A DNA stretch of 64,000 nucleotides from Psammoneis japonica (taxonomy: Eukaryota), in NCBI GenBank assembly GCA_008632985.1, contig QPGO01000012.1:1-64000 (forward strand), written 5' to 3'. Under the pieces are notes generated by a model. The model did no database searches. It saw only the letters and a program-made list of their open reading frames with translations, and had not been told where the DNA came from. This document shows, piece after piece, positions 1 through 54,095 of the stretch. The position numbers were made by a program, and so were the translations under genes. The stretch's first letter is position 1. Every line of letters starts with the position of its first letter.

Positions 1-2108
1 GGAGATGAAAATGACTTGTATCATGCCGGCGGGATCACATACATTGGCCCATCGGACGCAATCGGACCCTTTCCAAACACCGACTCGTATCAAGATGGTA
101 TCGTTACAAAGTCTGGCATTGTGATTCATAGCATCAGTCGTGCCAGCAACGTCATGAGATTCTCCGTCTCGTTTGTGGACAATAAGAGCGCACCCCTCAT
201 GCTTTATACCGAGGAACCAACCACCCGACCCACGCCTATACCAACTTCGGAACCAACCCGTATCCCATCTACTCCGTTCCCAACAATCGGACATGTTGTA
301 AGTAAAGAGCTTGGCACTTCTTTTCAAGGAGACAAGGCCGCCTCGGGTTGCATGTTTGACGTCCGGCCGCTCAATAGCTTGTATCTTCATGGAATGGACA
401 TTCATACCGACTCGACAGGGTACCTTCTGATTGAGATTTGGACCAAGCCAGGAACGTTCAAGGGATTTGAGACAAACAAGAATGAATGGAGTTTGGTTAT
501 TAAAGAGGTGATGCGGGGAAAGGGATTGGGAAATCGGAGTCCAGTACCGTCCTTTCCGTCCATGAAAGTGGCCGCCAAACAATCCTTCTACGTGGCTATT
601 CGGACAGGCGGACAAGTCTATTCCACCGCTGATGGGCAGCCGAGTAGTAGTGGCAAGAACAAGGTGTATGCCTCGAATAAAGACATCCAGATTCTGGAGG
701 GTGTTGGAAAGAAGAGTTACTTTGGCCGAAGCAATCGCAACCGACAGTGGAATGGCGTGCTGCACTATACGGTGGGTGCTGGCAACAACCGCGTCACTAC
801 GCCGGCTCCAACCGCCGCAAACCCAACGCCAACTCGAGCGGACCATCATCACGTCCCACACCATCTGTCAAACCATCAACGTCGAGACCATCGTCACAAC
901 CCACGCCATTGCCCACATTTCGTCCAACAACAATACAAGGAAAAAGAACCTTGCCACCGTCTACTGCTGCTTCCATCAAAAAGATCGTAACAACCTTTCA
1001 AGGAAGAGATGAACAAGCCGGAATCATGTTTGACATGGTTGCCTTTCAACCCGTAACCATTACGGGTATCAATGTTCTGATGACCACGTCGCTGTTGTCT
1101 GCCAGCATTACGGGTGACTTTACAATGGAAGTTTGGACCAAAATGGGCAGTTACAAGGGTTTTGAAACCGAATGTATAGCATGGAGACAAGTGGGAGTCA
1201 CCGACATTCATGTTGCTACTAGTACAACTAGTAGTAGTACCCAAAGCAGGTCTCGTCGTCGACGACGTATCGTCTCGAGCAGTATCCTGCAACAACCGGT
1301 TCCCATTTCGCAATACCGTGTACAAGCCTTTTACGTCACCATCAAGACTGACATGGACAATAAAGGAATTGTAATGCTCAATAGCAGCCCGGGTACAGGA
1401 CGAAACAAGGTTGCAGCTCACGATGAGAATCTTGCCATCTTGGAAGGAGTCGGAATTTCGTATCCTTGCAGCAGCAGCAATGTCGTTACTACTGAGAGCC
1501 GAATAATCTTGAATGGCATGATTCAGTATTTGCCCTTGATTGACGACGAAGTAACACTGCCCTTGCTGCCCACACCTCAACCAACTCCTATGCCGACCAG
1601 CAGCAACACCCATAAAGAACTCTTGACTACCTTTTTTGGAGGCAAGACGGGAGAGGGGTGCATGTTTCACGTGATTGCCAAGCAAAAAGCAGTCTCCCTC
1701 ACTGGATTCCGACTTCATGTGGACACCATGAAGGAGGTCCGGTACGAGATTTGGATGAAACGTGGAACCTTTGTTGGTTTTGAAACAAACCGCAAAGCTT
1801 GGACCCGCGTCGCTCGGGGGACCATTCATGGACAGGGTCGCGGACGGCCATCCTTGCCGCTTCTTCTGCATAGTGACGGATTCTTGTCAGTCGAAAAAGG
1901 CACCATGATTGCACTTTACATCACATTGACGGAAAGCAAGATGCGTTATACCAATGCAAATAAAATGAAACAACACGCCGGTTCCAACTCGGATTTGATC
2001 ATAACCAAGGGCGTTGGAAAATCCTATCCCTTTGCGATTACGTACCAAGACCGTGTCTGGAACGGAGTGTTGATGTACAACATTGATGGTGCTGTACCGT
2101 ACGAGTAG
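1..2108 (+). CDS. 3' part of a multidomain protein: probable M6/immune-inhibitor-A-like metalloprotease C-terminus, Pro/Thr linkers and three repeated ~135-aa domains; apparent frameshift near 830
   Basis: ORFs 16..990 and 747..2108 join via a frame change in the P/T linker. The motif GDENDLY...PNTDSY...IHSIS...MRF resembles M6 protease C-termini. Three repeats of TTF.G...G.MF.V...E.W.K.G...GFE...L.I..GVG..Y...WNG...Y follow. Confidence 0.65.
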
Positions 2109-2723
2109 AAAATAGACACAGGCGCTTTCTTTCGTATTACGTCGTCAAGGGGAGATTTGCATCATTATGGTGTTTTGAGTCTTGTTCGGCTTGTTAAAAG
2201 AAAGTAGCAAAGCCTGAATTAATCTTCATAGCCGTATCTTGGGTGGTATGATTCAGTATTTGCCCTGGATTGACGACAAAGTAACGCCCTTGTTGCCCAC
2301 ACCTCCACTGACTCGTGCGCCAACCAGCACACAACCCATGAAAAGGAACTCTTACTACCTTTTTTGGAGACAAGATGGGAGAGGGTTGTATGTTTCACGT
2401 GATTTCCAAACAAAATGCAGTGACCATTCCTGGATTCCGACTTCATTTTGATACCATAAAGGAGGTCCCGTACGAGATTTGAATGAAGCGTGGGNNNNNN
2501 NNNNNNNNNNNNNNNNNNNNNNNNNNNNNNNNNNNNNNNNNNNNNNNNNNNNNNNNNNNNNNNNNNNNNNNNNNNNNNNNNNNNNNNNNNNNNNNNNNNN
2601 NNNNNNNNNNNNNNNNNNNNNNNNNNNTTGGGGGGCGTCTTTGGAAGTGAGATCGTCGAAGGCGGTCTGATCGCCAGTGCGTTTGGGGTTTTCCCAGTAC
2701 AATTTGTACGCAAAAAAAAACAA

Positions 2724-2928
2724 TGGGGGACGTCTTCGGAAGTGAGACTGTCGAAGAAAGTTACGTAGAATTTGTACCAAAACAGTCTGTCAATCAGTGC
2801 GATTGGGTATTTGGGACCTCTGGACAGATCCTACGTGTTTTTTTTGCGTACAAATTGTACTGGGAAAACCCCAAACGCACTGGCGATCAGACCGCCTTCG
2901 ACGATCTCACTTCCAAAGACGCCCCCCA
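2724..2928. mobile_element. MITE family A, unconverted copy (TIR TGGGGRCGTCTTYGGAAGTGAGA)
   Basis: Terminal inverted repeats at both ends; a second, mutated copy lies at 10317-10548. Confidence 0.75.
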
Positions 2929-2954
2929 GAACGAGATGCGTTACACCAATGTCA

Positions 2955-3199
2955 TCGTGAGACCCCACAAATGCGGAGGGACCCTCCTGTAGAGCTCTGC
3001 GCGAATTTTTGTATGTGGCACTGAAACATGTAGCCTACATGCGCAAAACTGGCACAGTTTCTACGACAAAAATCCGAAAAAACGCCTGGCTCGCGAGACA
3101 GCTCTGGTGCAAAACCTGCGTGAGCAGCCCCCGTGCATTCACGCAGAACTCTGCACATTTCCGGGTTGCGGGTCCCTCCGTGTTTGTGGGGTCCCACGA
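2955..3199. mobile_element. MITE family B, probably Tc1/mariner-type with a mutated TA target-site duplication
   Basis: ~30-bp TIRs tcgtgagaccccacaaatgcggagggaccc / gggtccctccgtgtttgtggggtcccacga. Flanks are CA and TG at a site that is TA in the parent gene. Confidence 0.75.
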
Positions 3200-3480
3200 T
3201 GAAATGGAAGTGCAATGAAGCACGCAGGTTCCAACTCGGATTTGATCATCACCAAGGGCGTTGGAAAATCTTGTCCCTTTGCGATTGCCTGCCAAGACCG
3301 TGTCTGGAACGGAGCGTTGATGCACAACATGGACGATGGCACTGTTGCTTGGTGCAAATGCTGGAAACAAGGCACTTTTGTTTCATCCATTGCGTCGTCT
3401 TTCATTCCCAGTCTTGCTCGGCTCGACACCGTGTTGACATGAGAAAGCAGCAAAGCCTGAGTCAACTGCCGTTGACAACG

Positions 3481-3524
3481 CACACACACACACACACACA
3501 CACATGCACACACACACACACACA
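3481..3524. repeat. (CA)n microsatellite
   Basis: Direct reading; one TG interruption. Confidence 0.95.
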
Positions 3525-3899
3525 AGCTGCGATCCGATCAATCTTTTTTTTTTCTTCATGTGTCAACTCGAACGCTTGCACTCAGCATCGCTCTTGTGTG
3601 CCAACAGTCAAAAGTGTTGAGAGTGCATCTTGATCTGCAAATGGCTGCTGTGTGTTGAAGCACTGAAAAAATCAATCACGTCTTTTTTGCAGCATTGTGA
3701 GGTGAGCACTCGAGGTGAGCACTCGAGGGCAAGTTTCACAACATTTTCTTTTGTTGTGCTCACAAAATCAATTGTTTCCAACATCTTTGATGTTGGGGTG
3801 AAGTTTTCTCATCTGTTGTTTTGGAAAGAATGAGAATCAGAAGAGCAGCGAAGCTGTCACAAGTGCAGACGAAAATTTTTGTTGCGAAAATCAAATGTC

Positions 3900-6300
3900 T
3901 TGAGGAGCCGCCTGCGCTCCCCACCAGTGGCTGGCACCACTTTTCACACCAACTCAAGAACCCTGGATGACCAGTTCAGACAAGCACTGCATTGACAGCG
4001 GATCTCCAAGAGGCGCTGCATGCCTCAGAGACTTTGTTCTGCTGCTTTGGCCGGGCAAGCCCTGTCCGTCGTGACCTCCAGCCCAACAGCTTCTAGCATC
4101 TCAAGCACTTGTCACACTTTGCTTTCAGCTCCAATCACCCATGATCATTGCAATTTGGGACTCATGGCAAGACACAGTTGATTTGACCACAACATGTGAT
4201 GAATCTTCTTGCAGTCCAAGTCAATTTGGTTCTCAAGTTGAGCAGCTCGCAAGCCACTTCCAGGTGGATCTGTGCTTGTTTCTGTTCATGTGAAACCACC
4301 TCAAAAAGCCAGACACCTCAGCCTGTTGTCTTCTGTGAACATGTGAGTGAGCAGACGTGATTGCATCAAATGCACTCCGACTTGAACACTGGAAATGGCG
4401 TTGCTGGTCAATGCACCTGCAGCAGAAATTTTGATGGAGAGCAAAAAAACGTTGGCAAAAGTGTGACAAGAACTGACAGTTTGAGCGGCAATCGCCCAAC
4501 AATGTCCCTCCCACGGGATCAACTGAGACTTTCCATGTGTGCTCAATGCTCAAATTAAAACATTGACGAAGTTGCAACCGAACAATCAACATTGTCGGTG
4601 ACACATTCTTTCCACAGACAAGCATGATGCAAGGTGGTGCTTGACCAACCACCATGAACATCATCCGCAGGTGACTCCACTCACACCAAATCTTTTGTTG
4701 AGTTGTTCAATGAGTGCGCGAACCTTTCATGAACTTCGGTCACAGAGGCATTTGCAACCTTCAATTGGGTGGAGGCAACAACAGCAAAAACACATGAAAA
4801 GCAGTGATGTGAAAAAAAAACATCTAAAGGAAAAATTCGAGTGGCAATTGCTGCACCACATGCTTCCAACAGGGTTTGGAAAGACTCCGCAGATGCGATT
4901 GCCACTTGATTGTGAACATTGACGCCACCGCAAACAATTTGCTCACCATGGTTGAAATCTTTTTTTCTTGTGCAAAAAGCACAGGGGACGCGTTCCAGAC
5001 GTAGGTGGGAATCCGTGTGACATTGGGCCCGTAGACTTCTACGTGCGAGCTCCGTAGTAAAATTATACGGTAATTAAAATGTCAATGATCGCCAACAGAA
5101 AATGAGGCAATTTTGCGAACGCACAAACTCGCACATGATTGAAGTACATCATTTTTTACTTCGCCAGTTACATTCTTCAGACATTGAAGAATGTAACTGG
5201 CGCATTATTGTTTCTATAAATTTGTTATATAAAACGTCTGGGGCTTCGCAAAACAGCGAGTCTGGACAATTTTTTTTAAATATCACACGTAGAAATCTAC
5301 GTACGAAACATACGACGGATGATAAAAATTATTGTTGTCACACGTCAGTACTACGAGCTCCCACCTAGGGCTGGAACGCGTCAGGGATGTGGCAGATGAA
5401 CGTGAAAACAACATTTCAGTTGAGCTGTTCAACTGCAAGGTAAATCACATGGACTGGCTCATGCAGTGGTGCCATGCCACTGCAGTGGGCAAGTCTGGCC
5501 AGTTGATTCATTCGTTGGAAGCAGTTTTGTCCAATGCAAGTCTGTGTGGTTCTGCACAATTTTGGAAATTTCGCAACACAGTGGCATTGACTCTTGATGG
5601 CACACCATGGCTGTCGAAGCAACGGGCCTTCAGGTTTAGATCTCACTTCTGGAAAAGCAGCACCGATGTCACAAGCCTTTCTTTTGGTCTCACCCCCAGC
5701 ACATGCAACTGCAGGAAAATTTGTTCACTTTGTCAGAGCCATTGTCACATGTGATGACAGTGACAACAAGTGCCGCGCTTGCGGTGCACAGCAACGGTGA
5801 CGACCAAATGTTCTACACAAGTCATGGATGACAAGCAAACATCTGCGAATGCAAGAAGCATTTGTGCTTGACAAGTTTCATGCTCCCAGGATTCCAATGC
5901 TTGTTGACAACTGTGGTTTGTCTGCTCTGATGTGTTTCATGGCACATGCACACATGAACACAGAACACAAATTGATGGATCTGGGATGCCATTTCCATGC
6001 CAAAGTCATCTTGGAGGCAGATGCACAAGCCATTTGAAATCGCTGAGTGAGTCACATGCATGTCCATTGCAAATGTGTTGATGAAACACAGCCCATGTGT
6101 TGTGTTGTGCACTTGCCACAGGCCAAGCCAACTGTTTGGAACAATGGCGCACATCCGTGTGTGACCGCGCATGTTGGAAGCAGTTTTGCCAGAAAAATTG
6201 TGCAAAAATGTTGCACTTTTGACACGGGCACTGCTCAACAACAAAAGGTCACTCAAAGACAATCAAAGAGTAAAAATGTGCATTTTTGAGTGCAGAGATT
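3900..6300 (+). pseudogene. Degenerate coding remnant, possibly a MULE-like transposase, interrupted by MITE C
   Basis: Broken Tyr-poor frames with weak SWIM-like (WCHATAV) and zinc-knuckle-like (KICSLCQSHCH) traces. Confidence 0.2.
4987..5382. mobile_element. MITE family C, young insertion with a 4-bp TSD (AGGG)
   Basis: TIRs gacgcgttccagacgtaggtggga / tcccacctagggctggaacgcgtc; AGGG at 4983-4986 and 5383-5386. It retains normal TA and CG content. Confidence 0.85.
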
Positions 6301-7649
6301 TTGTTTGTGCAGTCATTTGGGGCTTGAACCTTGCTCAATCAGACACAAACACCAAATGAAAAATTGAAACACCAAATGAGGTGCCCAAATGTTTTGAAAC
6401 ACCATGTGTGGTGCTTGTCTCTGATTGGCATCACTTGCGGAAATTGTGGACATGCACAGTGGTTCAAAGCGGCACCAGCTTCGCAGAAATGAATTTTTTT
6501 GCACCAGCGTGGAAATGTGCGTGTGCATCTGGTGCACAAAAATCATGCTGACATCAACATTTTTCTCCGATCTTTCGGCAATGGTGGCAGTTGATGGTTC
6601 ACAGCTGTTGTGCCACTGACACCACTTCAATTGTCATCAAACCCATGGCATGTTGCTCATCACCCTCTTGTCAATTCACACATTTCTTTGAAATTGCGCA
6701 TTCTTCAGCCACAATCCTGACAATCAATGACATCAACACAAGGGAAAAACCAAATCAGGTGCAAGTTGTTTGCTGGCTTGCAACTGCATGTTTTTGTTTT
6801 GTGCACCCAACTGAGCGGCATTTTGCCTTCTCTTTCACTTGATCCCCTGGGGTGTCATTGTTCACAAATGCCGTGCTCCAGTCCTGACCCTCTCCCAAGC
6901 TCAGCTTGGTTTCACCCATTTGAGGATTCCCCAAAATGGCAAGGGCAAGGGGGATCACCTTGTTCTTTTGGGAAATTCCCCCGGGAAATGAGGGCAATTT
7001 AGTGGGAAGGGATGACTAAAGGGCCCGGGGAGGGGAACAAAAAACAAGTGCATTCTGGCAATTCCTGTTTGATTTGGGTTGGGCCGGTGCACCTTTTTCT
7101 CATCTTCATCCAGCCGGGCAATGACCATGATGGATGCATCAACAAATCAACACAAAGCACCCCCTTGTGGCAGAGTGAGGGAAGAACAAACTTTGCCATT
7201 AAATCACGCACATTGACATTGCTCACAAGGCGGCTCCATCATTTGTGCCCCAGCCTTTGCTCCAGAGCACTTGTTGTTTGCATTTGGAACCACACGACAC
7301 AAGAAGAAAAAGAAGATCTGCTGTGTTCTGCACATGAGACAGGTCAAAGGGAAGAACAAGCATTGTCAATCAATCCACCATGTTTTTGTCAGCAATGTGC
7401 AGTTCCACTTTTGCCTTGTCCTTCACACTGGGCACCTCATGGCTTGCCTTTCTGAGTGCACCACAAAAGAGTGATCTGGGTGACCCCCTTCATTCTGCAC
7501 ACAAGATGTGTCAATTGGAAGAATGAGAGAGACCATTCAATCTGACATGTTGTCATCATTGGCCATGCATGGTTCTGCTGCTTTTGCCTTGGCCTTTGCT
7601 GTGCGACTTGTGGCTTGCATTTTGGACTGCATGACAAAAGAACAACCAA

Positions 7650-9900
7650 TGCTCAGATGCTGACTTGCTGGCACTGAATGTGGTTGGCAGACAGAGAGAT
7701 CAGTTTGTGTGCATCAGAGTTGAAATGAGCAGTGATGGGCAGACGGCCATCACAGTGCCAGTGATGACCATGGTGGGTGCAGTCAGAATGGCAGGGAGCC
7801 TGGGCATGGGGGCAAGCAGGCCGCAAACCTTGGCATTGCACTGCGGTCGGCAAACTTTGGAGGTGGCAACAACACTTGGAGCTGGTGCAATGAGCCCAGC
7901 AAGGTGGAGACATGTTGGAAAGCTGGAGACATGCCAGGAGAACCACCAAGTGGCTGGCAGGGCCACCAACCACAATGCAGGAGCCATGTGGGTGGTCCAA
8001 ATGCATGCAGGTGGGAACCAAGAATGGTCAAGAGCCAGGGCACAGCAGAGCAGCCAAGAGAGCAGCCAAAGGAGGCACCAGCAGAACAGATGTCTCAGCA
8101 GCAGGTTGCCAGGTCCTGGAGCTTGAGTCTTTGAGAAGCCACCCTGACTCTGCTGGGGACACTGTCTCTTGTTGGCACCTTTGGGACAATTGTGGCACTG
8201 ACGGCTCCATTGCCATGGTGGCAACCACCATCCTGACCACCATTCCTGCCCATGTTCAGGCAATGACAAACCCAGTGGTCTGCAGCACCACAAACATGGC
8301 AGCCATCACCCAACTTGGACTTGCCAGCAGCTGCCTGAATGCCTTGAGTGTTCTGAATCATCAGCAGAACATTGACATCTCAGGGGTGAGCTGCAGGTTG
8401 GGCAAATTGGTGCCGGTGGTTTGGCAGAGAGCATGCCACTGAAGCTGGGTGGAGGAGCCTTGGAATCCTTGGCATTGTGACCAGGTGGCCACTTGCCATT
8501 GTTGCACTGTGTGTGACGTTCATTGATGACTGGTTCCAAGATGGAGGCTGAATCCAGTTCTTCAGCAAGCAGGAGCTTGTCCACATCATTGTGTGTCATG
8601 TTTTCAATCTTGAGCATGACCTTGGCCAGCTTTTTTAATGTGACACACAGGTTGAACTGAAAGTCCTTGTTCCCAGCTCTGCCAGCTGTGAGAAATGACT
8701 TCAGGAAGCCATGGGTGAGGGTGTTGTTGTGCGGACCCATGACAGCCAGCTGGTTGGTGCAGTCCTTGATGTGTGCAGCCATCACACCAGGTCCTTGCCA
8801 GGAAACTGAGAGGGCTGGACTGCTTGAATGTTGTCTTGCAGCTTTTTGAAAAGCTTGACAGACTGTGCACACAAGATCTTGAGGAGACAAAGCCATTGGA
8901 TGATGGGAAAGTGCTCATTGTCCTTGGCCATGCTGTGCAGCTCCTTGAGTGGGGTGGGTCAAGGCAGTCTCGAAGAGAGGCAACTCTGCATCAACATCAT
9001 TGGCCACATCACACTTTTCACAAGTGGAGGACCACTTTTTGATTCCACTTGGAACAGTGTCAATGGAGAGTTGAGCATGCTCCTTGATGGAGTCTGTCAT
9101 GTGGTCCAAGTCACATGGGTCAGGCATGTGGGTGACAGCATCCAAACCTTGGCACTTGAAATGATCCATTGGGAAGTCAGCAAAAGCAGTTGGATCACCA
9201 CATTTCTTGCATTTCTCCTTTGGGGCAGAAGCAGTGTGGCAGTGGGCACCCTTCTGGGAGGTTCCAACCAAAGCACTGCAAAACTGCATGGGATGGCAAG
9301 GCTCAGTCTTGGCAGCATCATTGAGGCCAGACCAGTCAGCCTTGGGCTTGCCACCACATCATGTCACTTCATTCTTGTCATGAAGAGCAGCAGCACTGCC
9401 CATGGTGGGACCAGTTGGCTTGAAAGATGCTGCTGGAGAAGCTGTTAGGATGACTTGCTTGAGTGCCTCAAATGGGACATCATTGGTGGTGCTCATGGTT
9501 GAACTGCCCTGCTGCTTGCAGTGTCGGTGGACTCATTGGCAGTCATGGTGGTGTTTTCTGACTCAATGTCATCAAAGGGGTGTGGGACCAACCATCTGGG
9601 ATGTCAGCACAATGAAGAAGCAGGAACTTGGAGACACATTCTTGGCATTGGGCAGAGACCATCTTGGAGGGGAGTTCCGTTGTGCATGCAATCTTGCAAC
9701 AGAAGACTCAAGGCACCACAGTGTGGGCCAGAAAGAAGACTGTGCACTCTTGAGTGCAAAAAGCTTGAGCGTTCTCTGTTGCAAGGCATTCCTCAGAAAG
9801 TGCAGGCCTTGTCAAACCCTGATTGGGCACAAATGGCAACCACTCGGGGTCAACAACTCTGATGGCTCTCTGTGAAACATGACTGCAGTCAGTGGGGGGC
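7650..9900 (-). mobile_element. Degenerate LTR-retrotransposon gag remnant (Copia/CoDi-like)
   Basis: CCHC knuckle CHVCGAADHWVCHC at ~8260-8301; gag-like segment HFKCQGLDAVTHMPDP...NDVDAEL; many frameshifts. Confidence 0.65.
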
Positions 9901-10316
9901 ACTGCTGCACTTGTGCAATGGAGCCTGTAGAGCAAGCCAGTTGCAGCACAGAATGAGCTTTTAAAAAGACTGATTCTACAAATTATGAGCCACTTTGAGG
10001 AGATCTGAACATGCTGAGTCTTGTGGGAAAGTTTGCTTCAGCCAATTTTTCAGCCTCAGACTCAAAATTTTCAATGCCACAGTGATCGCCAACAGCAATT
10101 TCCAACAGATCAATGCATGGCCAATGACATGCTTGCTGATGACAGCACTCTCAATGGAAGGTGCAGCAAGAACAGACACTCAAACACCTGTTCACTTGTG
10201 GGAGCCACAAGCAAGCACATTTAAATTTTAAATGTGTCGTTGACTCGTGATTGAAGTGTGTGACTCACGAAGAGAAGGACAGACAACCTGGACTTCCAGC
10301 ATGCCATGCTGGGTGC

Positions 10317-10548
10317 TGGGGGGGGCGTCTTCAGAAGTGAGATTGTCAAAGAAAGTCACACACAATTTTTGCTAAAACAGTCTGTCAATCAGGGCAATTG
10401 GGGCATTTGGGAATGCTGGACAGATCCCCTGTGTTTTTTCTTGTGTGCACAAATTGCACCAGAACCCCCCAAACAACGCACTGGCAATCAGACTGCCTTC
10501 GACAATCTCACTCACTCAGACCAATTAACTTCCAAAGACATCCTCCAG
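10317..10548. mobile_element. MITE family A, TA/CG-converted copy
   Basis: Colinear with 2724-2928 (e.g. gcgtacaaattgtact -> gtgcacaaattgcacc). Confidence 0.8.
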
Positions 10549-10649
10549 CCAGAGTGACTTCCTTTTTTCAAGCATGACAAAACCCAAAACAAAACGGCCA
10601 CCATTGCCATCATTGCTGTCGTTTCCACTTTTGAAATTGCTTTCTCACA

Positions 10650-11880
10650 ATGGCGCCAAAAAAGACAACAGTGGCAGAGGCCAGTGGAAAAGAGCACACA
10701 ATGATGCTGGGCAGCCAAGATGGGTGCAGGGACACACCATCTGAGTTCAGTGTTGCCTTTCTGCAAGATGTGATGGTGTTGAGACAAGAAACTTTGAGTC
10801 CCTTGCCAATGGATCACAGATCTTCTGGAAAAAGCCAAGGGTGGGACACTCACCAATTCAGAAATTGAGCATGCCTTGGTGAGTCACTCCAGGTTCATCG
10901 ATGAGATCCCAAGCAAAACAGATCAACGAGAAGATCACAATTGGCAGGTCATTTGTGGACTCACCTCAGTGTGTGCATCAGACACAGACAAGGTTGGTGA
11001 TCAGGGGACAGCATCTGTTTAACAGCCCGGTTCCTGAAGCATTTGGAAATGTTGGAACTGCAGTTTGCTGCAAGAGGCTCACCCCTGTTCAGTGCTGCTA
11101 AAACCATGCAAGAAACTTGGTGATCTGCAGCGGGAGCACAACGTTGCAACTCAAATCCATGGCACTCAAACTTGTCCAATGGCAATGCCTGTTCTAGACC
11201 TGATTAATTTACCTGGGGCAAACTGCAACGTGTTGCAATGGTCACACCACACTGCCCAATTCCTTTGTCTTTTCTTGCACACGGGAATTTGCACGAAGAA
11301 GGGTGTGTCAACGTGTGGCTTTGTGTGGGCTTACGACAATCAAGGCCTTCCACAGAGAAGGTGTCTGCCATGGCAACACAAAAAACTGGGGAACATGATG
11401 CTTGCAGCCAGGAGTGACAACACAGTCATTGCAATTGACTTCGGATTGGCGGTCGAACATGGAGAGAGTCTGGCGTCATTGACGCCCGGATTTGGTCTGG
11501 AGTGTCCACCAGGAAGGATGTCTCAAATGTGACTTGACATGTTTGGCATCTTCACTGCATGTGTTCCGCACAGGAGAGATGCTGCTGGCAACCTCAAAGC
11601 AACTGCTTGAGACTTTGGAAGGTGGGAATCAATTGCTGCCACCCTCTCTTTGGATTGCCATGAGCTGTCCGCAGTTGACTGGCATTGATTTCATTTGGGA
11701 ATTTGCGAAGGGCTGTGCAGAGACTGCCAATGGGACAGATTGTTCTCTCATTGTGTTGTGTGATGCTGTTTGGCCAAAAGTGAGATTAGAGGATGAAACG
11801 AATTGTGCTCAGACAATCTTCAAGGAAGGAGCATCGAGGTCACTGTTGTCATTGTTGTTGTCAGCAAATCCTCCTTGACT
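10650..11880 (+). pseudogene. Degenerate protein kinase gene
   Basis: KLGNMML...VIAIDFGLAVE (catalytic-loop tail and DFG) at ~11380-11460; frameshifts and stops. Confidence 0.65.
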
Positions 11881-12350
11881 GCAATCAAAAGCATGTGGAA
11901 GACATTGGACAAATAAGTTTCATCCCTTCATGGACGATGCCGTAGATAATAGATTTAAACTAAGTACAGAGTTAAAGAGCCTACGGCATGTAGAGCGGAA
12001 GGGAACAGCAGAAGGAGGCACGGAAGTAGCTGTAGCACGGCAGAATAGAACGGGCGCTTCGTCACGCTTGTTTCGGAGTACAGGCGCCTGGAGACGATGG
12101 GGGTGCCCAAATTCCAGCGAATCATCAACATTGAACATATCATAGACCATCGCTTTACTACAGTAAACATAGAAGTACTAGTAGAAAGCAAACAAAGCCA
12201 AACTAGCTACTAGAGAGAAGTATGCTGCATGATCATGTCATACGATATCTAAAGTCAGTCTAAAGTCACCTTATGGAATGCTACTCTTGGAAAATACCGT
12301 GTCGCCAACTGGCACGCGCTCCTCGATGTTGCGCCTCTCATTGCGCAAAT

Positions 12351-20404: not shown

Positions 20405-23224
20405 ATGGACAACGACAATGACGAAAACGACACGTCCATACCTTCCATTTTTGATAGAATTTGTTTTGAATTTGGAGAAAAGGATGCCATAGTTTTTTCA
20501 AACAAGCAACCGCTTTGCTACTTGGAGCTCCAACAATCCTATCTTGCCTTGGCGTGCCAGCTCTACTTTCGATATCGTCCAACGTATTGTCTTGTGGATG
20601 TTCGAGGTGAAGTTGCCGCTGAAGCCGTCTCTATGTTGGCGTGTATGAGAATTGGCGTCCCGTTTGTACCCGTCAGTGCAGACACACATCATGCCGGCAA
20701 GAGGCTAGAGGCCATTGTCAGCTCACTCCGTAATGCCAGTGCAAGCGACTCTCGTATTGTTGCAATCGTCCAATGCGACAATGACAAGGATCCTATTCTT
20801 ACGCATTATTCAAATGTCAATGTGCACAATGTTGTTTATGTCAACAATCGAGGCGATCTCGTGGAACCCATGAATGTGTCCGACTCGCTACCCAACTGCT
20901 TTGAAAATGACGAAATGTACGTCTTGTTTACGTCGGGTACATCGGGAAACACGCCAAAAGCCGTGGTGGGTTCGGCCAAGAGTACGTTGCATCGGTTGAA
21001 GTGGTTTGCAAAAGAATTTCCCTCCAAACAAAACACGGTCATTGCACGACGAAACAAGCTTGCCTTTGTCGATTCCATCACGGAACTGTTTTCCGCACTC
21101 TTGTTTCCTCCGGCTGTCTTGTATGCCATTGACGAGTTGGAAGAACAAGGAATCTCTGCTATACTGAATACACCTTGTACCAGAGTCACCATGCTTCCAT
21201 CGCAACTCTCTCAGTTGTTAATGCTTGCTCCAACGATGCCATCATCCCACTCGCTCGAGATGATTGTTGTTTCGGGCGAACCTTGTCCCTCTAATCTACT
21301 TGGCGACTTTACCAAGCTTTTTCCAAACACTGTGTTGATCAACTTATACGGACAGACAGAGTCTACGGGGGACGTCCTTTGCGCAGTCTTGACGGAAATG
21401 AATCATCCCATTGTGAACAATGTCGTTTCGGTGGGAAAGCCAATTCCGGGCGTGTCCTTACAAAACAACAACGAATTGGTGGTATCTGGAAATTTAGCCG
21501 CGCGGTACTTGCATTCCAAAACTCACTTTACATCATTTCCTACCGGTGATGTTGGGTTTGAATACAAGGGCAACTGGTACGTTCGGGGTCGATTGGATGA
21601 TGTGTGCAAGGTGAATGGAATAATCACGTCTCCGTCCGAAGTCGAAGCTGTTGTCATGGATGTTTACAACATTACATCCTGTGCGGCGTGCATTATCGAT
21701 TCCAATGTGTACGTGTTGGTAGAGCAGCAAGTTTCGTTTAGTAGAGAGAAAATGAGAAACGCTGCTGGAGTTCCTTGGAATCTTGTTCCAAAAGAGATGT
21801 TTTGCGTCGAATCTCTTTTTCGCTCCGGGAGCGCTGGTAAAATCGATCGAGCGCGAGTGCGTCAACATGTAATGGACATTCTTTCAAAAGGCAAACAGCT
21901 GGACCGAGAAGAAAGCCAAGACGAGGTTGATTTGATTTTGCATGAGGTTCTTGGCGTACAAGTTCTTGATTCCACCAAGTCGTTTGTTGAGATGGGAGGA
22001 GACTCGGCCCTCGCCATTACACTCTTGTACAAATTGCGAGCGGCCGGGAAATGTGGAAAGGAAATGACAGCATGGCACATTCTGAACGCGAATAGCATTT
22101 GTGAACTCAAGGGTTTGATTCTTGATGAACGATGCTTGAAGCGAAGGCGACCAGAGAATGAAATCCAGGTTCAAGAGCCCGCATTTGAGAAAAGGGAGAT
22201 TCTGCACTTGACAGAGGGACATGTTGCAGTCCAGTTTAAAGCTTGTGTAGATGCAGCACCGCTGGTACACGGTGCTGACATTTACGCTGCCTGCCAGGGT
22301 GGCATCATCCAAAGGATTGTGGATGGAAACGAGGTAGCGTCAGTTTTCGATTTGGGGTGTAGCATTCAAGCAGATTTGATCGTCGTGGACGATTCCATCA
22401 TTGCGTGCGGGTATGATTCGGAAAAGGAGGACGGGATTGTAGCGGCCATTAAACTTGATTTATCAGAAGCAAAATGGACCAGGAAAATGAATGGAATGAT
22501 TAAATCTCGCCCTGTCCATATCGATTCCTCCGTCTACGTTTTAGCTGGGAAACACTTGCACATTATGAGGGCTCAAGATGGTGACGATACAGCTATACTT
22601 GATCTCCCTTCTGGAACTGAATCTTCGCCTACAGTCGCTACTACCGAGAAAGCCTCCCGATGTATTGTGTACGCATTTAGTGACTGGGATGCAAGCTTAG
22701 AGATGGTGACAGAATCCACGGTTACGCACATTCCTGGAGTTGAGTACCCGGTGTACTCTGATCTTTTAAATACAGATGACAATACTGTGTTTTTCGGTGA
22801 TATCTGCGGCCATCTCCATGCCGTCAATGTCAGTAGTGGCTCCGAAAGAAAACATCAGGTATCAAACAAGCCCATCTTTAGCGGACCAGCACTCCTCTCA
22901 AATGGAACGATTGTATTTGGTTGCCACGATGGAATTGTTCGTTGTGTCAACAACTCAGATTTATCCATACGCTGGGAATATGATGCTCGTTCCGTGGTGT
23001 ACTCGAAACCTCTTGTGTTGGAGGACGATTCGATTGTTGTCTGTTCGACAGCCGGTGATATCATCAACCTATCAAAGTGCGGAGAGGAAAGTTGTCGGTG
23101 CAAGATTGATGGGGAGATATGGTCAGATCCCGTCATGATAGACAAGAGTCGAATAGCAGTGGGTGGTCGGGACTCAAAACTGCATATTGTTGACCTGGGC
23201 TGTTCTACCGCAGAGCGACAGTAG
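20405..23224 (+). CDS. AASDH: AASDH/ACSF4-like NRPS-type enzyme (adenylation + phosphopantetheine carrier + PQQ-like beta-propeller)
   Basis: YVLFTSGTSGNTPKAV, NLYGQTE, TGD, GKIDR, carrier motif MGGDS and C-terminal propeller repeats. Confidence 0.88.
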   Translation: MDNDNDENDTSIPSIFDRICFEFGEKDAIVFSNKQPLCYLELQQSYLALACQLYFRYRPTYCLVDVRGEVAAEAVSMLACMRIGVPFVPVSADTHHAGKRLEAIVSSLRNASASDSRIVAIVQCDNDKDPILTHYSNVNVHNVVYVNNRGDLVEPMNVSDSLPNCFENDEMYVLFTSGTSGNTPKAVVGSAKSTLHRLKWFAKEFPSKQNTVIARRNKLAFVDSITELFSALLFPPAVLYAIDELEEQGISAILNTPCTRVTMLPSQLSQLLMLAPTMPSSHSLEMIVVSGEPCPSNLLGDFTKLFPNTVLINLYGQTESTGDVLCAVLTEMNHPIVNNVVSVGKPIPGVSLQNNNELVVSGNLAARYLHSKTHFTSFPTGDVGFEYKGNWYVRGRLDDVCKVNGIITSPSEVEAVVMDVYNITSCAACIIDSNVYVLVEQQVSFSREKMRNAAGVPWNLVPKEMFCVESLFRSGSAGKIDRARVRQHVMDILSKGKQLDREESQDEVDLILHEVLGVQVLDSTKSFVEMGGDSALAITLLYKLRAAGKCGKEMTAWHILNANSICELKGLILDERCLKRRRPENEIQVQEPAFEKREILHLTEGHVAVQFKACVDAAPLVHGADIYAACQGGIIQRIVDGNEVASVFDLGCSIQADLIVVDDSIIACGYDSEKEDGIVAAIKLDLSEAKWTRKMNGMIKSRPVHIDSSVYVLAGKHLHIMRAQDGDDTAILDLPSGTESSPTVATTEKASRCIVYAFSDWDASLEMVTESTVTHIPGVEYPVYSDLLNTDDNTVFFGDICGHLHAVNVSSGSERKHQVSNKPIFSGPALLSNGTIVFGCHDGIVRCVNNSDLSIRWEYDARSVVYSKPLVLEDDSIVVCSTAGDIINLSKCGEESCRCKIDGEIWSDPVMIDKSRIAVGGRDSKLHIVDLGCSTAERQ

Positions 23225-24011
23225 CAAGATGAATGGCGAGAAGACGCGCCCCGAGAGCTTGAGAAGTTGCGTCGATCAGTGGACATGATTTCAATTACGA
23301 GAGGCTGTGGTCTTACGCTTGACAGGGACTGGACGGCACCACATACTGCAAGGTCGATGCGTCTTCTGTAAACCCCTTGGTATGGCAAGGTGAAGAGATG
23401 TTGAGTCGAACATTGCCTGACGCGGGACAAGATATTCCAAGATACGGGCAAGTAGTTTCTCTCCGAGCAATGAAGCAGCAGTACGAGTTATCTCCTTCGC
23501 CCTAGCAACACACGCGCAATTTTCTTCCTTCAATTTCGCCATTTTAAAGGGAAGCTTCTTTGCGTCTTCGTAGTGTAGCAAGAGCTTTGACGATCTCGCT
23601 TTTCCGACGTCATGATGGGCGCTTAGAAGCCGATGTGTCGATCAGGGCGTATCTTTTCTTCTTGAAAATGATCGTAGATGAAACCATGAGGATAATGAGC
23701 CCTTTCATACAAACACACATTTCCTTTGCTTGTCGGGATCTTGAGTACTACTCTCTCGCTGGTTGGTCAAGATGAGCTCAACCCGATGAAGGCCCAGTGC
23801 CATTTCCCTGCCTTACTCTTGCCACTCATAATCGAAGTTTTGCAGCGGTTCAAGAAAATCTGAAATGTTATCGGTACGATATGCGATGCGCGAGCGAATT
23901 CGCTAACGATTTTGATTGGCCCTCGAAATTTTCGCGATTAGCGTGGAAGAATATTTCCATTGCCGTGGACAATAAAAATCCACTTCGCAGACACTATACA
24001 TTTCCATCACC

Positions 24012-27019: not shown

Positions 27020-27810
27020 TGTGGTTTGCTCTGATCTTTTAACTGCAGGTGACAGCCCTGTGTTTTTCGGTGATGTCTGTGGCCACCAGCTGCGTGCAGT
27101 CAATGTCCGCAGTGGCTCCGAAAGAAAACATCAGGTGTCAAACAGGCTCATCTTTGGCAGACCAGCACTGCAATCAAATGCAATGATTGCATTTGGCTGC
27201 CATGGTGGAATTGTTTGATGTGTCAACAGCTCAGATTCATCCGCACGCAGGGAATGCGATGCTCACTCTGTGGTTTGCTTGAAACCTCTGGTGTTGGAGG
27301 TTGGAGAACAACTCAATTGTTGTCTGCACAACAGCTGCTGATGCCGCAAAACTGACAAAAAGCAGAGAGAAAAGTTGTGCTTGGAAGGTTGATGGGGAGA
27401 CATGGTCAGATCCCATCATGACAGAGACAAGAGTCGGATGGCAGTGGGTGCTGGGGACTCAAAGCTGCATGTTGTTGACCTGGGCTGTTCTGCCACAGAG
27501 TGACAATGGCAAGATGAATGGCGGGAAGACACGCCCTGCAACAAGAGAAGTTGTGTTGCAAAATGGACATGATTTTTGCTGCGAGGGGCTCAGGTCTTGC
27601 ACTTGACAGCGACTGGAGGATGGTGCCAAATGCCACAAGGTCGTCGCATCTTCTGTCAGCCCCTTTGTGTGGCAAGGGGCAAGCAATGTTGAGTCAAACA
27701 TCACATTGTGCAGGACAAGACATTCCAAGTTGCTGGCAAGTGGATTCTTGCCAAGCAGTGAAGCAGCATGAGAGCTGTCAACACAAGAGCAATCTTTCTT
27801 TGCCTGTTCC
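27020..27810 (+). pseudogene. Converted duplicate of the AASDH 3' end and downstream sequence (source ~22750-23530)
   Basis: Colinear alignment, e.g. agtggctccgaaagaaaacatcagg is shared; stops and frameshifts. Confidence 0.9.
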
Positions 27811-42465: not shown

Positions 42466-42657
42466 TGTGACAAAAGGAATGAACAGTGATGTGGCACACG
42501 GTTCATGCTGCAATGCCCTTGCTTCATCTTAGAACAGTGCATCAACCACACGCGCTTGTTTGCGCAACCATTGCCAAAGACCACAGCCCAATCAGGCCTG
42601 TGGACCTGTCACCGGCAATGCCAGCAATGGCCCTGCCACCGTTGCGCTGCCAAGACA
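42466..42657 (-). repeat. 3' LTR (fully converted)
   Basis: Aligns to 49092-49284; both end ...gcgctgccaagaca. The left boundary is approximate. Confidence 0.8.
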
Positions 42658-45600
42658 GACCTCTACACCAGGGGTTGCTTGGTCCCCGTGAATCAACACA
42701 CCTGTTTTGATTTGTCCTCTTGAAACATCCTCTCACAGAGAGGTGAAACACAAACCCAATTTGCCACCAGCCAGTCTGGCTCATGGGAGGTTGCAGAGCG
42801 TGAACGCAAGTCACAGGCCCAAACCTTGGTGAGTGAGACTCACCATCACCAAAACAAAAATGAGCACAACTGCCAGCACTTTGCACCTGTCACAAGCTTT
42901 GTCAATGGATCCACCAGATTTGTCTCTGCACATCTTCCTTTCCTGCTCTCATGATTCCAGCTGCAGCTGCTTCCCTTGCCACATGACAGTCAATCACATT
43001 GTGCTTCTTGGTGCAGTGTAGATTCTGGGATGCTGACATTCTTCACCATCCCGCAATTGTCACAAAACACATTGGCTGGTCCATCAATCAGCACTCCAAA
43101 CATTTGCAACTTGCAACGCAAAGCAACAATCATGTCCCCACAGATCCGCGTGGCAACCAACTCACTGCCAAACATGGAAAATTCAACCACATTTTGCCAC
43201 TTGCCAAACCACACAACGAGGAATTATTCACAAAGAGAATGACACCTGAATGCAACCTGCAGGGAACAACATTCCCAGCATGATTCACATCAACAAAAGC
43301 ACGCACAGTTGCCGGGTTTCCACGTGGCTTGAGCATCCTTGGTGGCAACTCTCCTTGACATCTCCACAGAATTTGGTCCAGTCTGCCACAGTGTTGAACG
43401 CTGTGAATCATCAATCTCAGGATTCTTGGGGTCAAAGCCAATCCTCCCCATGCTCAGATGCTTCTTCACATGTGCAAACACATGACACAAGGCTTCCGAA
43501 TGACCCTTCCTTGGATTGCCTGATGTTGAGAAAGAAAAGACACTTCAAACAATGCATCAATGCAACCCAACTCTGTCGCCCACCTTGCAATGCTGTGAGC
43601 TGCAAATGCTGAGACATCAACTCGGGACCCAACTCATCAGTCACGTCCAGCTTGGGCTTGCAGTTCAATGGAAATGGATCTTTTACATTGTTCTTCAGGA
43701 CTGCACCATCCCATCCTCACTCAGCAAGTCTTCAATGGTCTTAATTGCATTCTTGACACAGTCTCTTGGTGAGCTGCCTCAGATCATCTGGCCATTTGCA
43801 TCTGGATCTTCTCTGTCATTGCTCCCAGGCAAGTCTTTGGCTCACCTTTGCTTCCAGATTTAACTTGCAGCATTCAGCAACAGATTCAACAACTGACTTG
43901 CCTTGGTGTGACATCATCAATGCATCGTCAACACAGACCAGTGACATCTTGCAGCACTCAAATCCATCCTCACGACTGCTGCTCTCAAGCACACATCAGG
44001 GTCTGCTCGCTTGGTTCAAAACATCTTGCAAAGCAGAAGAAAATGTCAATCACCATGAAAACCCTGCACTCTTCAATCCACAAGTGCTCATGCAACAATC
44101 AATGTGCACCCTTTGAACTTGCCACACTCGGCTCCACCTTCAAACCAAATCTTCTCAGCACACGGTGCATTCAAGCAAGCATTTTCCAAGTGATCACAGC
44201 AATGTCCACACCATTCAAGGCTGCCAACATAAAAGCAATTCACACACTGTCCCTTGAAACAACACTTGAGTGCGCAATCAATTCCAGTGTTTTGTGGCAT
44301 GACCTCCGACTGCAAACCTTGCTTTGCACGCAAATTCATCTTGACGTCAAATGTCATGTGGCGCTGCATCTCCTGGTGTCCACGCAGCTTCTGATTCTTT
44401 CCTTCTCAAACTTGTTGCGGAGTCTCTCCTTCATGCTTTTCCCAAGCCACTTTGATCTCAGTCATTTCCTTGTTGATTGCTCTGGCCCAATGATCAGTCC
44501 CTGCTTCATGGTCAATCTGCAGCACCTCATCCACATTCTTTGGCAACTTTGCACCAAACTCATGTGCAGTCCTCCAACACTTCAACTTGGCCTTGGACAC
44601 AATCCTGTTCGTTTCCATGACACATGAGGTGCCCACCAGGCAAATGCCAGCTCATCAGCAATTCAATGAGCCACTGCGCACTCAGCCACTTCTGTTGGGT
44701 TAGAGTCTTTGATGTCCTTCAACTTGACCCAGTCAGAACTGCCATCCTTCCATGCTGTCAGCAATTCCCAACCTTCTGTCATGACTTTCTTCTTGTTCTG
44801 ACCTCCTGCGGTTGCAACTGTGCCATCTTCCCATGAAATTGCATCCTGATTCCTCCTGTGATCCTGAATCTCATGTGAGATGGAGAGCTGATGACCCTCG
44901 TTGTCAACCTGAGCAAATGTGTTTTTAGCTGTGACATTTGCAGTGTGCTTGTCTGTTGTTCCATCAGTGCATTCAATTTCATGCTCCCGCATGTCAAACA
45001 ATGGGTCCTGGTGTTGGCTGCCAATCGGCTTGCCGCCATGGCCTCTTGCTTGTTTCACAACTGCACCATGCCTTTCACCTTTTGTGCCAACATCCAAAAT
45101 CAATTCCATGCCAAGACATTGGTCTGTCACTTCCTCATCATTGTCGTCAGGTTGTTTGCCATCGAGCAGCATGTTGCCACATTCCTCATTGTCTGGGGTC
45201 ATGCCTCCTTGACATTGCACTGCATTGTCCCCTTCAATTGCATGGTCACATAAAAACAAAATGCTGGCACTACCTTGTCACCTTCAAGCACAAAGTTTGC
45301 ATCATCAAGATGCCTCGTCAAAGCTTCATCAAACCTGTCAATTTGTGCCTCTTCTCCAATTTGACACAATCGGCCTGCACAACATGCTCCACTGAGGTCT
45401 TGGGTGCCAATTTGCTGGTCTCAGCTGTTGTCCAATGGCACACATCTGATCCAACCTTGTGGGATGTTCCAAGCCACCTGCTGAGTTGTCTTGGATCTTT
45501 GGTCATTGGTCACACTTGGCTTTGAATCCGGTTGATCCCACCACCAGACCAAATCATAAAATCCAAAGTCAAGACACTCTCGATTTCTGGCATTTGTCCT

Positions 45601-49091: not shown

Positions 49092-49284
49092 TGGCAAAGC
49101 GAACAAATGGTGATGTGGTGCCACGGCTCATGCCGCAACACCCTCACACCTCATCTTAGATTAGCGCATCGACCACACGCACTTGTTCATACAACCATTA
49201 CTAAAGATTATAGCCCAATCAGGCCTGTGGACCTATTGCCGGTAACACCAGTGACAGCCCCACCACCGTTGCGCTGCCAAGACA
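49092..49284 (-). repeat. 5' LTR (partly unconverted)
   Basis: Aligns to 42466-42657; retains TA in its gene-proximal part. Confidence 0.8.
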
Positions 49285-49391
49285 GAAGGATTTAGGGCCC
49301 TGCTCGAAAAGAGAAGCATGTTCGTTTGCGGAAATTGATCACAAATAGGTTCCTATACTTTACGGCAAAAAAGAAGCCGCCGCAATCCGCA

Positions 49392-52012: not shown

Positions 52013-52362
52013 TGGCTTGTGTCGTTTTATAGGAATGAAAGCACTGGCTTTCTCGGACAGAGGCGCCGCAAGTGCAATTTACAAACTCCTATCTTTGTTG
52101 CAACAGTGGACAAAAGGTTGTCAAGGCAGGTGAGATCGAAAAAGCCCGCGAATTCAAACTCAACGGCAGGGCGGTTATTTGGTATCGCTGTAAAACAATA
52201 ATGATTTATAAGATCGTAATTAATCATTGAATTTCCAAAAAGCGCGGGAAATGTGGGAAACTGCACCGGGCCCCTACTTCACCGCGGTGCCCACCCGAGA
52301 AAGTCGAAAAGATCGGGACCACTCAGTAAGCACACCGGTGTTAGCTCCTGGAGCATCTGACC

Positions 52363-53547: not shown

Positions 53548-53914
53548 AGTAGTACGGTACAAGAACTATTATGGGTACGGGAAAAGGTTGCCGACACTGG
53601 GGGATCGGGGAACTAAACGATCATCATTTGGTATGGTGAGGGGAAAGGGGAATTTATGTTTGTAATGTAGGGCCTAGTATAGCCGTTGTATAGCTCTAGC
53701 TAGCTACCGGTAGAGTAGAGTTTGCGTTGAACAAGATAGCTCACGTCAAATGCAAATCCCGATGTGAGATTTGTCCCGGTTGCTTGTGATTCACGGACGC
53801 GGTATCCCAACAACCAATCACCCAACGCACCAGGTGCAGGGCGCAGAAAATCTGCGATCACATTCAAACTGTCAGCAGGTATTTTCTTGCACATCACATC
53901 GAGAAACACGAACA

Positions 53915-54095
53915 ATGGCCGTAAGACTGAGTTTAAGAGTGGGAGCAGCCTGCGTGCTTTTTTGGGTGCAAGTTGCATCTCTGGAAGCAGTGGCACAGCC
54001 GGCATTTCTGACAGCAGAGCGGTCAACACAACAAAAAGGATCCTTTTGGGTGACAGCTGTGACCCATCAACCATCTCTCCCACTGATCTGCTTTC
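53915..54095 (+). pseudogene. Truncated, converted copy of the JmjC gene 5' end
   Basis: Aligns to 58877-59058, then is replaced by unrelated converted sequence. Confidence 0.85.

What the first reader, a model, noticed from the sequence alone, without database searches (positions are those of the whole stretch)
3202..3460. TA conversion is uncoupled from CpG decay
Compared with 1965-2085, the copy has lost all 5 TA (4 by transition: tat->tgt, tta->ttg, tac->tgc, gta->gca), while 6 of 8 CpG are intact and none went to TG/CA. The 3' UTR behaves alike (tattacgtcgtc -> cattgcgtcgtc). TA mutation therefore appears faster than, or independent of, 5mC deamination.
Basis: partly seen in the sequence, partly recalled or inferred. 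Interest (0 to 1): 0.78.

Follow-up and report, generated by a model that had tools for sequence, protein, structure and literature searches.

The report
TA erasure outruns CpG decay
In this diatom, transposons and dead gene copies lose their TA steps to TG or CA roughly ten times faster than their CG steps decay; the two losses hit the same stretches of DNA but behave as two separate mutation processes.

Summary
In detail: the copy lost 5 of 5 TA and no CpG by transition. It is the 3' piece of a dead tandem gene duplicate at the edge of a TA-erased block in a diatom. 66 copies lost at least half their TA but under 30% of CG; 0 of 156 copies with under half their TA lost had lost 30% of CG. 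TA goes about 9-fold faster pooled, about 14-fold at the median site. The two share targets (rho 0.77; 326 of 333 CG-poor tiles are TA-poor), so they are not independent in place. They are separable in chemistry: CG loss tracks age, lags at block edges, and is near zero at one strongly hit locus. The neighbouring MITE has 17 of 17 changes A>G/T>C. Closest known: TpA hypermutation of viral inserts in Bigelowiella natans (2026 preprint). The enzyme is unknown. This scan noted the TA erasure before on other DNA of this genome, twice under this same title.

The parts
681..2108 (+). Intact open frame of an unknown gene family (475 aa stop to stop); the reference for the copy
   Evidence: no Pfam family; paralogues L002 and L003
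2236..2493 (+). 5' piece of a partial tandem duplicate (matches 1506-1765), with an in-frame stop at 2480-2482; TA largely kept
   Evidence: TA 3 of 4 kept; CG 3 of 9 read TG/CA
2495..2627 (.). Assembly gap (N)
2629..2928 (.). Compound MITE of family B with 91-nt inverted arms; nearly unmutated (1 of 8 TA, 0 of 13 CG lost in the part at about 2725-2928)
2930..2951 (+). Short piece of the duplicate (gene about 1932-1955); one TA converted, one kept; approximate true edge of the hypermutated block
2952..3203 (.). MITE of family D inserted in the duplicate; against young copy L249 it shows 17 differences, all A>G or T>C: 13 of 18 TA lost, 0 of 16 CG lost, 4 at other A/T
3204..3700 (+). 3' piece of the dead duplicate (coding end, 3' UTR, downstream flank); contains the finding; 0 TA and 22 CG in 3204-3720
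3063..11913 (.). TA-erased block (TA o/e 0.02-0.06), interrupted by a young MITE; CG o/e falls from 0.8 at this edge to 0.10 at 7001-10000
4987..5382 (.). Young MITE of family A (24-nt inverted ends, 4-nt target duplication); no TA or CG transition yet; time zero of the trajectory
10320..10512 (.). Old family-B MITE copy deep in the block: 7 of 8 TA and 9 of 12 CG lost (late stage)
27023..27768 (+). Dead copy of part of the AMP-binding/beta-propeller gene at 22750-23480: 25 of 29 TA sites read TG/CA (1 kept, 3 other); 25 of 36 CG read TG/CA (8 kept, 3 other); late stage

Best explanation
Two mutation processes act on the same repeat-rich, probably silenced domains. (1) A fast mutator turns A into G (T into C on the other strand) in TpA steps, site by site, on either strand. 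It prefers TAC/TAT to TAA/TAG and spills weakly onto other adenines. (2) A slower C>T decay at CpG, most likely deamination of 5-methylcytosine, runs like a clock once DNA is in such a domain. A new insertion or duplicate loses most TA first and CG later. The finding is an early-stage piece at a block edge, where the TA mutator has finished and CG decay has hardly begun. SHOWN: order, rate ratio, shared targets, context, local separability. INFERRED: silencing and 5mC as the cause of CG loss. UNKNOWN: the TA enzyme. My odds: targeted DNA adenine deaminase (TadA/ADAT-like) 0.45; a modified or damaged A or T in TpA that miscodes 0.25; error-prone polymerase 0.2; other 0.1.
For: ORDER: of 253 copies, 66 have TA loss of 50% or more with CG loss under 30%, 31 have both, 156 neither, and 0 have the reverse. 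The same holds in 80 family-A copies picked by a motif free of TA and CG (37, 11, 32, 0). Family C climbs from 0 to 18 of 29 TA lost with 0-4 CG lost. RATE: 15 hit copies of one master lost 346 of 463 TA and 57 of 390 CG (ratio 8.7); 31 young copies lost 40 of 959 and 1 of 803. Transversions were 9 of 5904 and 23 of 12192. Random-effect fit: median TA site 14 times the CG rate, quartiles 4.6-35. SHARED TARGET: family B, 16 of 16 copies with both flanks TA-poor are hit, against 0 of 23 with both flanks normal. With MITEs masked, 326 of 333 CG-poor 500-bp tiles are TA-poor and 1 is TA-normal, while 170 of 927 TA-poor tiles keep normal CG. SEPARABLE: in 88 hit copies CG loss tracks private transversions (rho 0.46); off-target A>G tracks TA loss (0.51) but barely CG loss (0.18, p = 0.09). 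Three MITEs in L112 lost 76 of 86 TA, 4 of 75 CG, and 18 of 387 other A/T. At 81 block boundaries TA drops at once to 0.075 or less, while CG goes 0.84, 0.62, 0.51, 0.43, 0.40 inward (paired p = 1e-5, n = 65). SPECTRUM per site in 63 hit copies: A>G at TA 0.389, CA 0.013, AA 0.010, GA 0.005; C>T at CG 0.079, other 0.001-0.005; transversions 0.0017. TAY is 3 times TAR. Direction (TG or CA) differs between copies at the same site, so the events followed insertion. B. natans shows TpA hypermutation with almost no G/C>A/T change (bioRxiv 10.64898/2026.01.13.699255). P. tricornutum methylates transposon CG through DNMT5a (PMC9998398, passages); this genome gave 27 matches to PF00145.
Against: There is no methylation, chromatin or RNA data, so 'silenced' and '5mC' are inferred. 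A single exposure with a constant ratio fits nearly as well as two clocks: the exponent is best at 0.8-1.0, and a 'CG off' class is only 5-8% of copies (twice the log-likelihood gain 9.0 and 6.3). The 5' piece of the duplicate kept 3 of 4 TA yet 3 of 9 CG read TG/CA (2 of 5 where gene and L003 agree); this is small and unpolarised but runs against the rule. The rate ratio differs between families (median 8 to 42). Copies of families C and D and part of A were chosen by similarity, not at random. Off-target CA and AA rates do not differ (p = 0.29), so they do not pick a deaminase over a polymerase. No special deaminase gene was found. The 'edge' class of copies is small (6 without the window's own; 9 of 110 against 335 of 1459 CG lost, p = 0.011), and some of its TA-rich flanks may be young MITEs rather than genes.
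Confidence: 0.8

Rival explanations
1. One process: TA changes are by-products of error-prone repair of deaminated methyl-CpG (T:G mismatches). The CpG is usually restored and a polymerase such as pol eta leaves A>G errors nearby, so TA appears to lead.
For: Both losses are confined to the same domains, and one exposure with a constant ratio fits. The repair route itself is recalled; one search gave a listing only.
Against: TA site rate is unrelated to distance from CpG or CpG density (88 sites, p = 0.11-0.41). TA changes near a lost CG are not on the same strand more than by chance (187 of 376, null 0.485). There is no strand coordination along copies (p = 0.84 and 0.55; neighbours p = 0.08 and 0.14). 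TA exceeds AA about 40-fold and transversions are not raised. L112 has the most A>G and almost no CG loss. Long repair patches would escape the distance test.
Confidence: 0.12
2. Fully independent systems with their own targets (the strong reading of the title).
For: 170 of 927 TA-poor tiles have normal CG; 14 of 97 hit copies lost at most one CG; locus L112.
Against: CG decay almost never occurs without TA loss: 1 of 333 CG-poor tiles is TA-normal, and 0 of 156 copies. CG steps down at the same boundaries as TA.
Confidence: 0.05
3. The segment is sampling noise, or TA loss reflects selection, GC-biased conversion or assembly error.
Against: The pattern repeats over 5568 TA and 5308 CG site-copies. 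Non-coding MITE copies change independently, in both directions, with almost no other change. Window blocks keep GC at 0.48-0.49, like the gene-rich DNA. The copy's letters occur in contigs of run X1.
Confidence: 0.03

Closest known systems
TpA hypermutation of integrated NCLDV and virophage DNA in Bigelowiella natans (Mettrop et al., bioRxiv 10.64898/2026.01.13.699255; read: abstract, introduction, results, discussion, conclusion; tables are images and supplements were closed)
   Same: TpA>TpG/CpA transitions on both strands, confined to regions. That paper also finds transposon domains among TpA-depleted sequences and proposes an ADAT-type deaminase.
   Different: There the measured targets are two viral inserts, with 230 of 231 changes A/T>G/C and mild depletion (Rho 0.45). 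The text has no mention of CpG or diatoms. Here the targets are MITEs and host gene duplicates, depletion is nearly complete (o/e about 0.06), a second slower CpG decay follows, and there is a TAY over TAR preference with weak spill onto other adenines.
CpG decay by 5-methylcytosine deamination in methylated transposons (DNMT5-type CG methylation in diatoms, PMC9998398, passages read)
   Same: CG-specific C>T in repeat blocks, rising with age.
   Different: It is the slower, second process here and cannot produce TA>TG/CA.
Repeat-induced point mutation (RIP) of ascomycetes (features recalled; named in PMC9998398)
   Same: Repeats and duplicates are destroyed by dense transitions while neighbouring genes are spared.
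   Different: RIP is C>T, mostly at CpA, and creates TA. Here TA is removed and C>T at CpA is at background (2 of 2152).
Polymerase eta A>G mutagenesis at WA (features recalled; listing only)
   Same: A>G favoured after T.
   Different: AA is about 40-fold below TA, TAA is a cold context, and there are no strand-coordinated runs.

Membership tests
B. natans-type TpA hypermutation | A>G / T>C transitions restricted to TpA, on both strands | tested here: met
   TA 1047 of 2693 sites; other A 70 of 7356; both TG and CA outcomes
B. natans-type TpA hypermutation | Confined to regions; the rest of the genome is normal | tested here: met
   (0 of 23 family-B copies between normal flanks hit)
B. natans-type TpA hypermutation | Almost no G/C>A/T change in the hypermutated region | tested here: not met
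   CG>TG/CA at 168 of 2126 sites in hit copies; met only locally: 17 of 17 A>G/T>C in the MITE at 2952-3203 and at L112
B. natans-type TpA hypermutation | Targets of viral origin | tested here: inconclusive
   The targets examined are MITEs and host gene duplicates; viral inserts were not examined
B. natans-type TpA hypermutation | About 1000-fold rate per generation, active in only some lines | not testable with these tools
   Only relative rates: TA 0.389 against transversions 0.0017 per site, near saturation
B. natans-type TpA hypermutation | ADAT2 homologue with HxE, PCxxC and the downstream Asn | tested here: met
   L169: HAE, PCIM|C across an apparent intron, GCRNDRFGG. The Asn equivalence is recalled. 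An ordinary tRNA enzyme, so this discriminates nothing.
5mC-driven CpG decay | C>T specific to CpG | tested here: met
   0.079 against 0.001-0.005
5mC-driven CpG decay | Rises with age | tested here: met
   rho 0.46 with private transversions (0.62 in family A)
5mC-driven CpG decay | The CpG sites are methylated, by a DNMT5-type enzyme | not testable with these tools
   27 PF00145 matches; none typed to a DNMT class; no methylome
RIP | C>T at CpA producing TA excess | tested here: not met
   CpA C>T 2 of 2152; TA o/e about 0.06 in blocks
RIP | Triggered by homology before meiosis, RID-dependent | not testable with these tools
   No crosses or lines
Pol eta WA mutagenesis | AA mutated at a rate near TA (recalled) | tested here: not met
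   0.010 against 0.389
Pol eta WA mutagenesis | Strand-coordinated clusters (recalled) | tested here: not met
   permutation p = 0.08-0.84

The most novel reading that the evidence does not exclude
The TA mutator is a methylation-independent DNA adenine-editing genome defence, a 'reverse RIP' shared by diatoms and chlorarachniophytes. It recognises new repeats and duplicates, advances at domain edges ahead of CpG methylation, and so erases gene duplicates that lie next to transposons before ordinary decay starts.
Probability: 0.3. Interest if true: 0.87.

Novelty: new variant of a known kind. Interest (0 to 1): 0.68.

Why it matters
It turns a compositional oddity into a measured process with an order, a rate ratio, a sequence context and a spatial front. 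These constrain the unknown enzyme and give direct tests: a DNMT5 knock-out should remove CG decay but not TA loss if the reading is right. It extends a mutator measured only in one chlorarachniophyte to a diatom, and to transposons and gene duplicates. Practically, repeat ages in such genomes are inflated unless TA and CG sites are left out, and TA and CG loss together give a fast and a slow clock for dating insertions. I found no paper on TpA erasure in diatoms in searches; the library lacks most subscription journals.

Tried and rejected
Lag phase for CG decay: not supported. The exponent profile is best at 0.8-1.0; 1.5 is 4 log units worse and 0.6 is 5 worse. An earlier per-copy fit gave 0.6 and ratios near 30, but it has one free parameter per copy and kept inherited sites, so I set it aside.

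One genome-wide burst: family A is bimodal (1 of 80 copies between 26% and 52% TA loss), but family C is continuous. Waves of transposition plus fast saturation explain it as well; unresolved.

Processive single-strand editing: no strand coordination. Dependence of TA loss on nearby CpG: none. YA against WA off-target preference: CA and AA not distinguishable.

Dedicated enzyme: the PF14437 search gave 5 matches: a TadA-like protein, two dCMP-deaminase-like loci (one read), a deaminase-2OG fusion and ADAT2 (labels partly recalled); nothing expanded. The Tet_JBP search found nothing, but its control also rang nowhere, so it is uninformative.

Expression: no RNA holder listed. One search stopped on a script error after family B; redone. 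Rows left out: for families A-C, matches under 280, 150 and 280 aligned bases, under 75-78% identity, over 7.5% transversions, or sharing a flank with a kept copy (numbers dropped were not printed); stricter cuts of 3-5% transversions.

Full report
SOURCE. The window is G000:C12:1-64000 of a 91.4-Mb assembly. The best named relatives of its aromatic amino acid hydroxylase are diatoms. Gene-rich DNA has TA o/e 0.53-0.59 and CG o/e 0.92-1.04; five stretches have TA 0.02-0.06 and CG 0.15-0.62, at unchanged GC content.

OBSERVATION. Confirmed. Gene 1972-2083 and copy 3219-3330 differ at 10 of 112 columns. All 5 TA are gone, four by transition against the gene and the fifth by transition against paralogues L002 and L003. 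Six of 8 CpG are kept, one reads AG, one CC. Fisher p = 0.0008; on sites shared by all three references p = 0.029. Over 3210-3720 against L003, 18 of 18 TA are lost but 4 of 11 CG do read TG/CA. Zero of 8 is unremarkable at the usual rate (p = 0.25), so the segment alone shows 'slower', not 'independent'.

ANATOMY. The segment is the 3' piece of a partial tandem duplicate of the gene at 681-2108. The duplicate runs 2236-3700 and is split by a gap and two MITEs. The 5' piece kept 3 of 4 TA. The family-B MITE lost 1 of 8 TA. The family-D MITE at 2952-3203 differs from young copy L249 at 17 places, all A>G or T>C: 13 of 18 TA lost, 0 of 16 CG. The edge of the mutated domain therefore lies near 2930-2950, and the finding sits 250-500 bases inside it. 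CG o/e then falls from 0.80 (3204-3460) to 0.46 (3721-4986) and 0.10 (7001-10000) while TA stays at or below 0.04.

I collected copies of four MITE families and compared each with a real young copy. Family A: 261 exact motif hits in the genome, 100 listed, 111 copies kept. Family B: 75 motif hits, 75 copies kept. Family C: 30 of 40 listed loci plus copies in other loci, 45 kept. Family D: 20 of 40 listed places, chosen by me across identity bands, 22 kept. Of 253 copies, 156 lost under half their TA and none of these lost 30% of CG; 66 lost at least half their TA and under 30% of CG; 31 lost both. The 80 family-A copies picked by a motif without TA or CG give 32, 37 and 11, and again none in the fourth class. 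In some searches, 11 of 173 changed copies had CG loss at or above TA loss: ten involve one or two CG changes in nearly intact copies, and one is saturated for both. The direction of change differs between copies at the same site, so the changes came after insertion.

RATES. Within one master sequence, 31 young copies lost 40 of 959 TA and 1 of 803 CG; 15 hit copies lost 346 of 463 and 57 of 390, a ratio of 8.7. Transversions were no higher in hit copies. Most of the young copies were picked as closest to the query, which limits all changes alike. TA sites vary widely, so pooled ratios understate fast sites. A random-effect fit of my own gives a median TA site 14 times the CG rate (quartiles 4.6-35), with family medians of 14, 8, 12 and 42. 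No lag phase is needed.

SAME TARGETS. CG transitions are at background in 136 copies that kept their TA (8 of 3963 sites) and at 168 of 2126 in 63 hit copies. In family B all 16 copies with two TA-poor flanks are hit and none of 23 with two normal flanks. In 0.87 Mb of fetched DNA with the MITEs masked, 326 of 333 CG-poor tiles are TA-poor, 6 intermediate and 1 normal. This DNA was fetched around MITEs and is not a random sample.

SEPARABLE PROCESSES. 170 of 927 TA-poor tiles keep normal CG. At 81 boundaries TA falls at once while CG declines over about 700 bases, from 0.84 to 0.40. The boundary is defined by TA, so the sharp TA step is partly by construction and the first 50-base bin may include normal DNA; the 50-200 against 700-1100 comparison is still significant (p = 1e-5). 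Among 88 hit copies CG loss follows private transversions, whereas off-target A>G follows TA loss and hardly CG loss. Locus L112 has the most off-target A>G and 4 of 75 CG lost. Whether edges are younger (spreading) or less methylated cannot be told from sequence. Against the rule: the TA-intact 5' piece shows 3 of 9 CG as TG/CA.

THE TA MUTATOR. It acts on both strands without coordination and without relation to nearby CpG. It prefers TAC/TAT threefold over TAA/TAG; TTAA keeps 66% of its normal density in window blocks. It raises A>G at other adenines about threefold over C>T outside CpG (70 of 7356 against 17 of 5234). This fits single lesions at A or T. It fits poorly with polymerase eta or patch repair (features recalled). 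Deaminase-based adenine editors favour TA (PMC9024924, one passage), which is only a resemblance. The genome has an ordinary ADAT2 and no expanded deaminase family among 5 matches.

COMPARISON. The TA process works like the TpA hypermutation measured in B. natans, which I learned of from earlier notes of this scan and then read. It meets that system's context and regional features but not its absence of G/C>A/T change, and viral targets were not examined. It is not RIP. The CG process behaves like 5mC decay, but methylation is untested.

VERDICT. Real and general in this genome. TA loss leads CG decay by about an order of magnitude. The two share domains but are separable. New variant of a known kind; interest 0.68.

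Noticed in passing
L112 (G000:C47:525500-531500): A 6-kb locus with TA o/e mostly 0-0.15 but CG o/e 0.5-1.0 and GC up to 0.56; its three MITEs carry the strongest off-target A>G with no private transversions. The best place to look for the TA mutator acting alone.
   Followed up: partly
window 4987-5382 and relatives: Family-A MITE copies sit mostly inside TA-poor blocks even when unmutated (94 of 109 with both flanks TA-poor), while unmutated family-B copies sit in or beside normal DNA. Hit family-B copies mostly have two TA-poor flanks, which hints that blocks grow around insertions.
   Followed up: partly
window 3315 (gene 2068): The copy gained a CpG where the paralogues have TA and the gene TG. 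Off-target CA>CG (0.013 per site) regenerates CpG and may help hold CG above zero in old blocks.
   Followed up: partly
window 52356-54096 and 57334-59059: A 1.7-kb tandem duplicate whose end crosses a block edge near 53935: 7 of 45 TA read TG/CA before it and 6 of 6 after it; CG 11 of 85 and 4 of 7.
   Followed up: partly
window 42468-42659 and 49092-49286: A short repeat pair: 8 of 9 TA changed and 3 of 8 CG read TG/CA in the copy inside the block; 9 CA/TG swaps.
   Followed up: partly
window 1-2108: A repeated-domain gene family without a Pfam match (two frames scanned), with paralogues on C575 and C96 that share identical stretches with each other, suggesting recombination between copies.
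   Followed up: no
L168 316-1791 (-): A zinc deaminase domain in one open frame with a 2OG-Fe(II) oxygenase.
   Followed up: no
G000:C297, C301, C10: Several cytosine methyltransferase matches with internal stops, clustered on a few contigs; possibly mobile or decayed copies.
   Followed up: no
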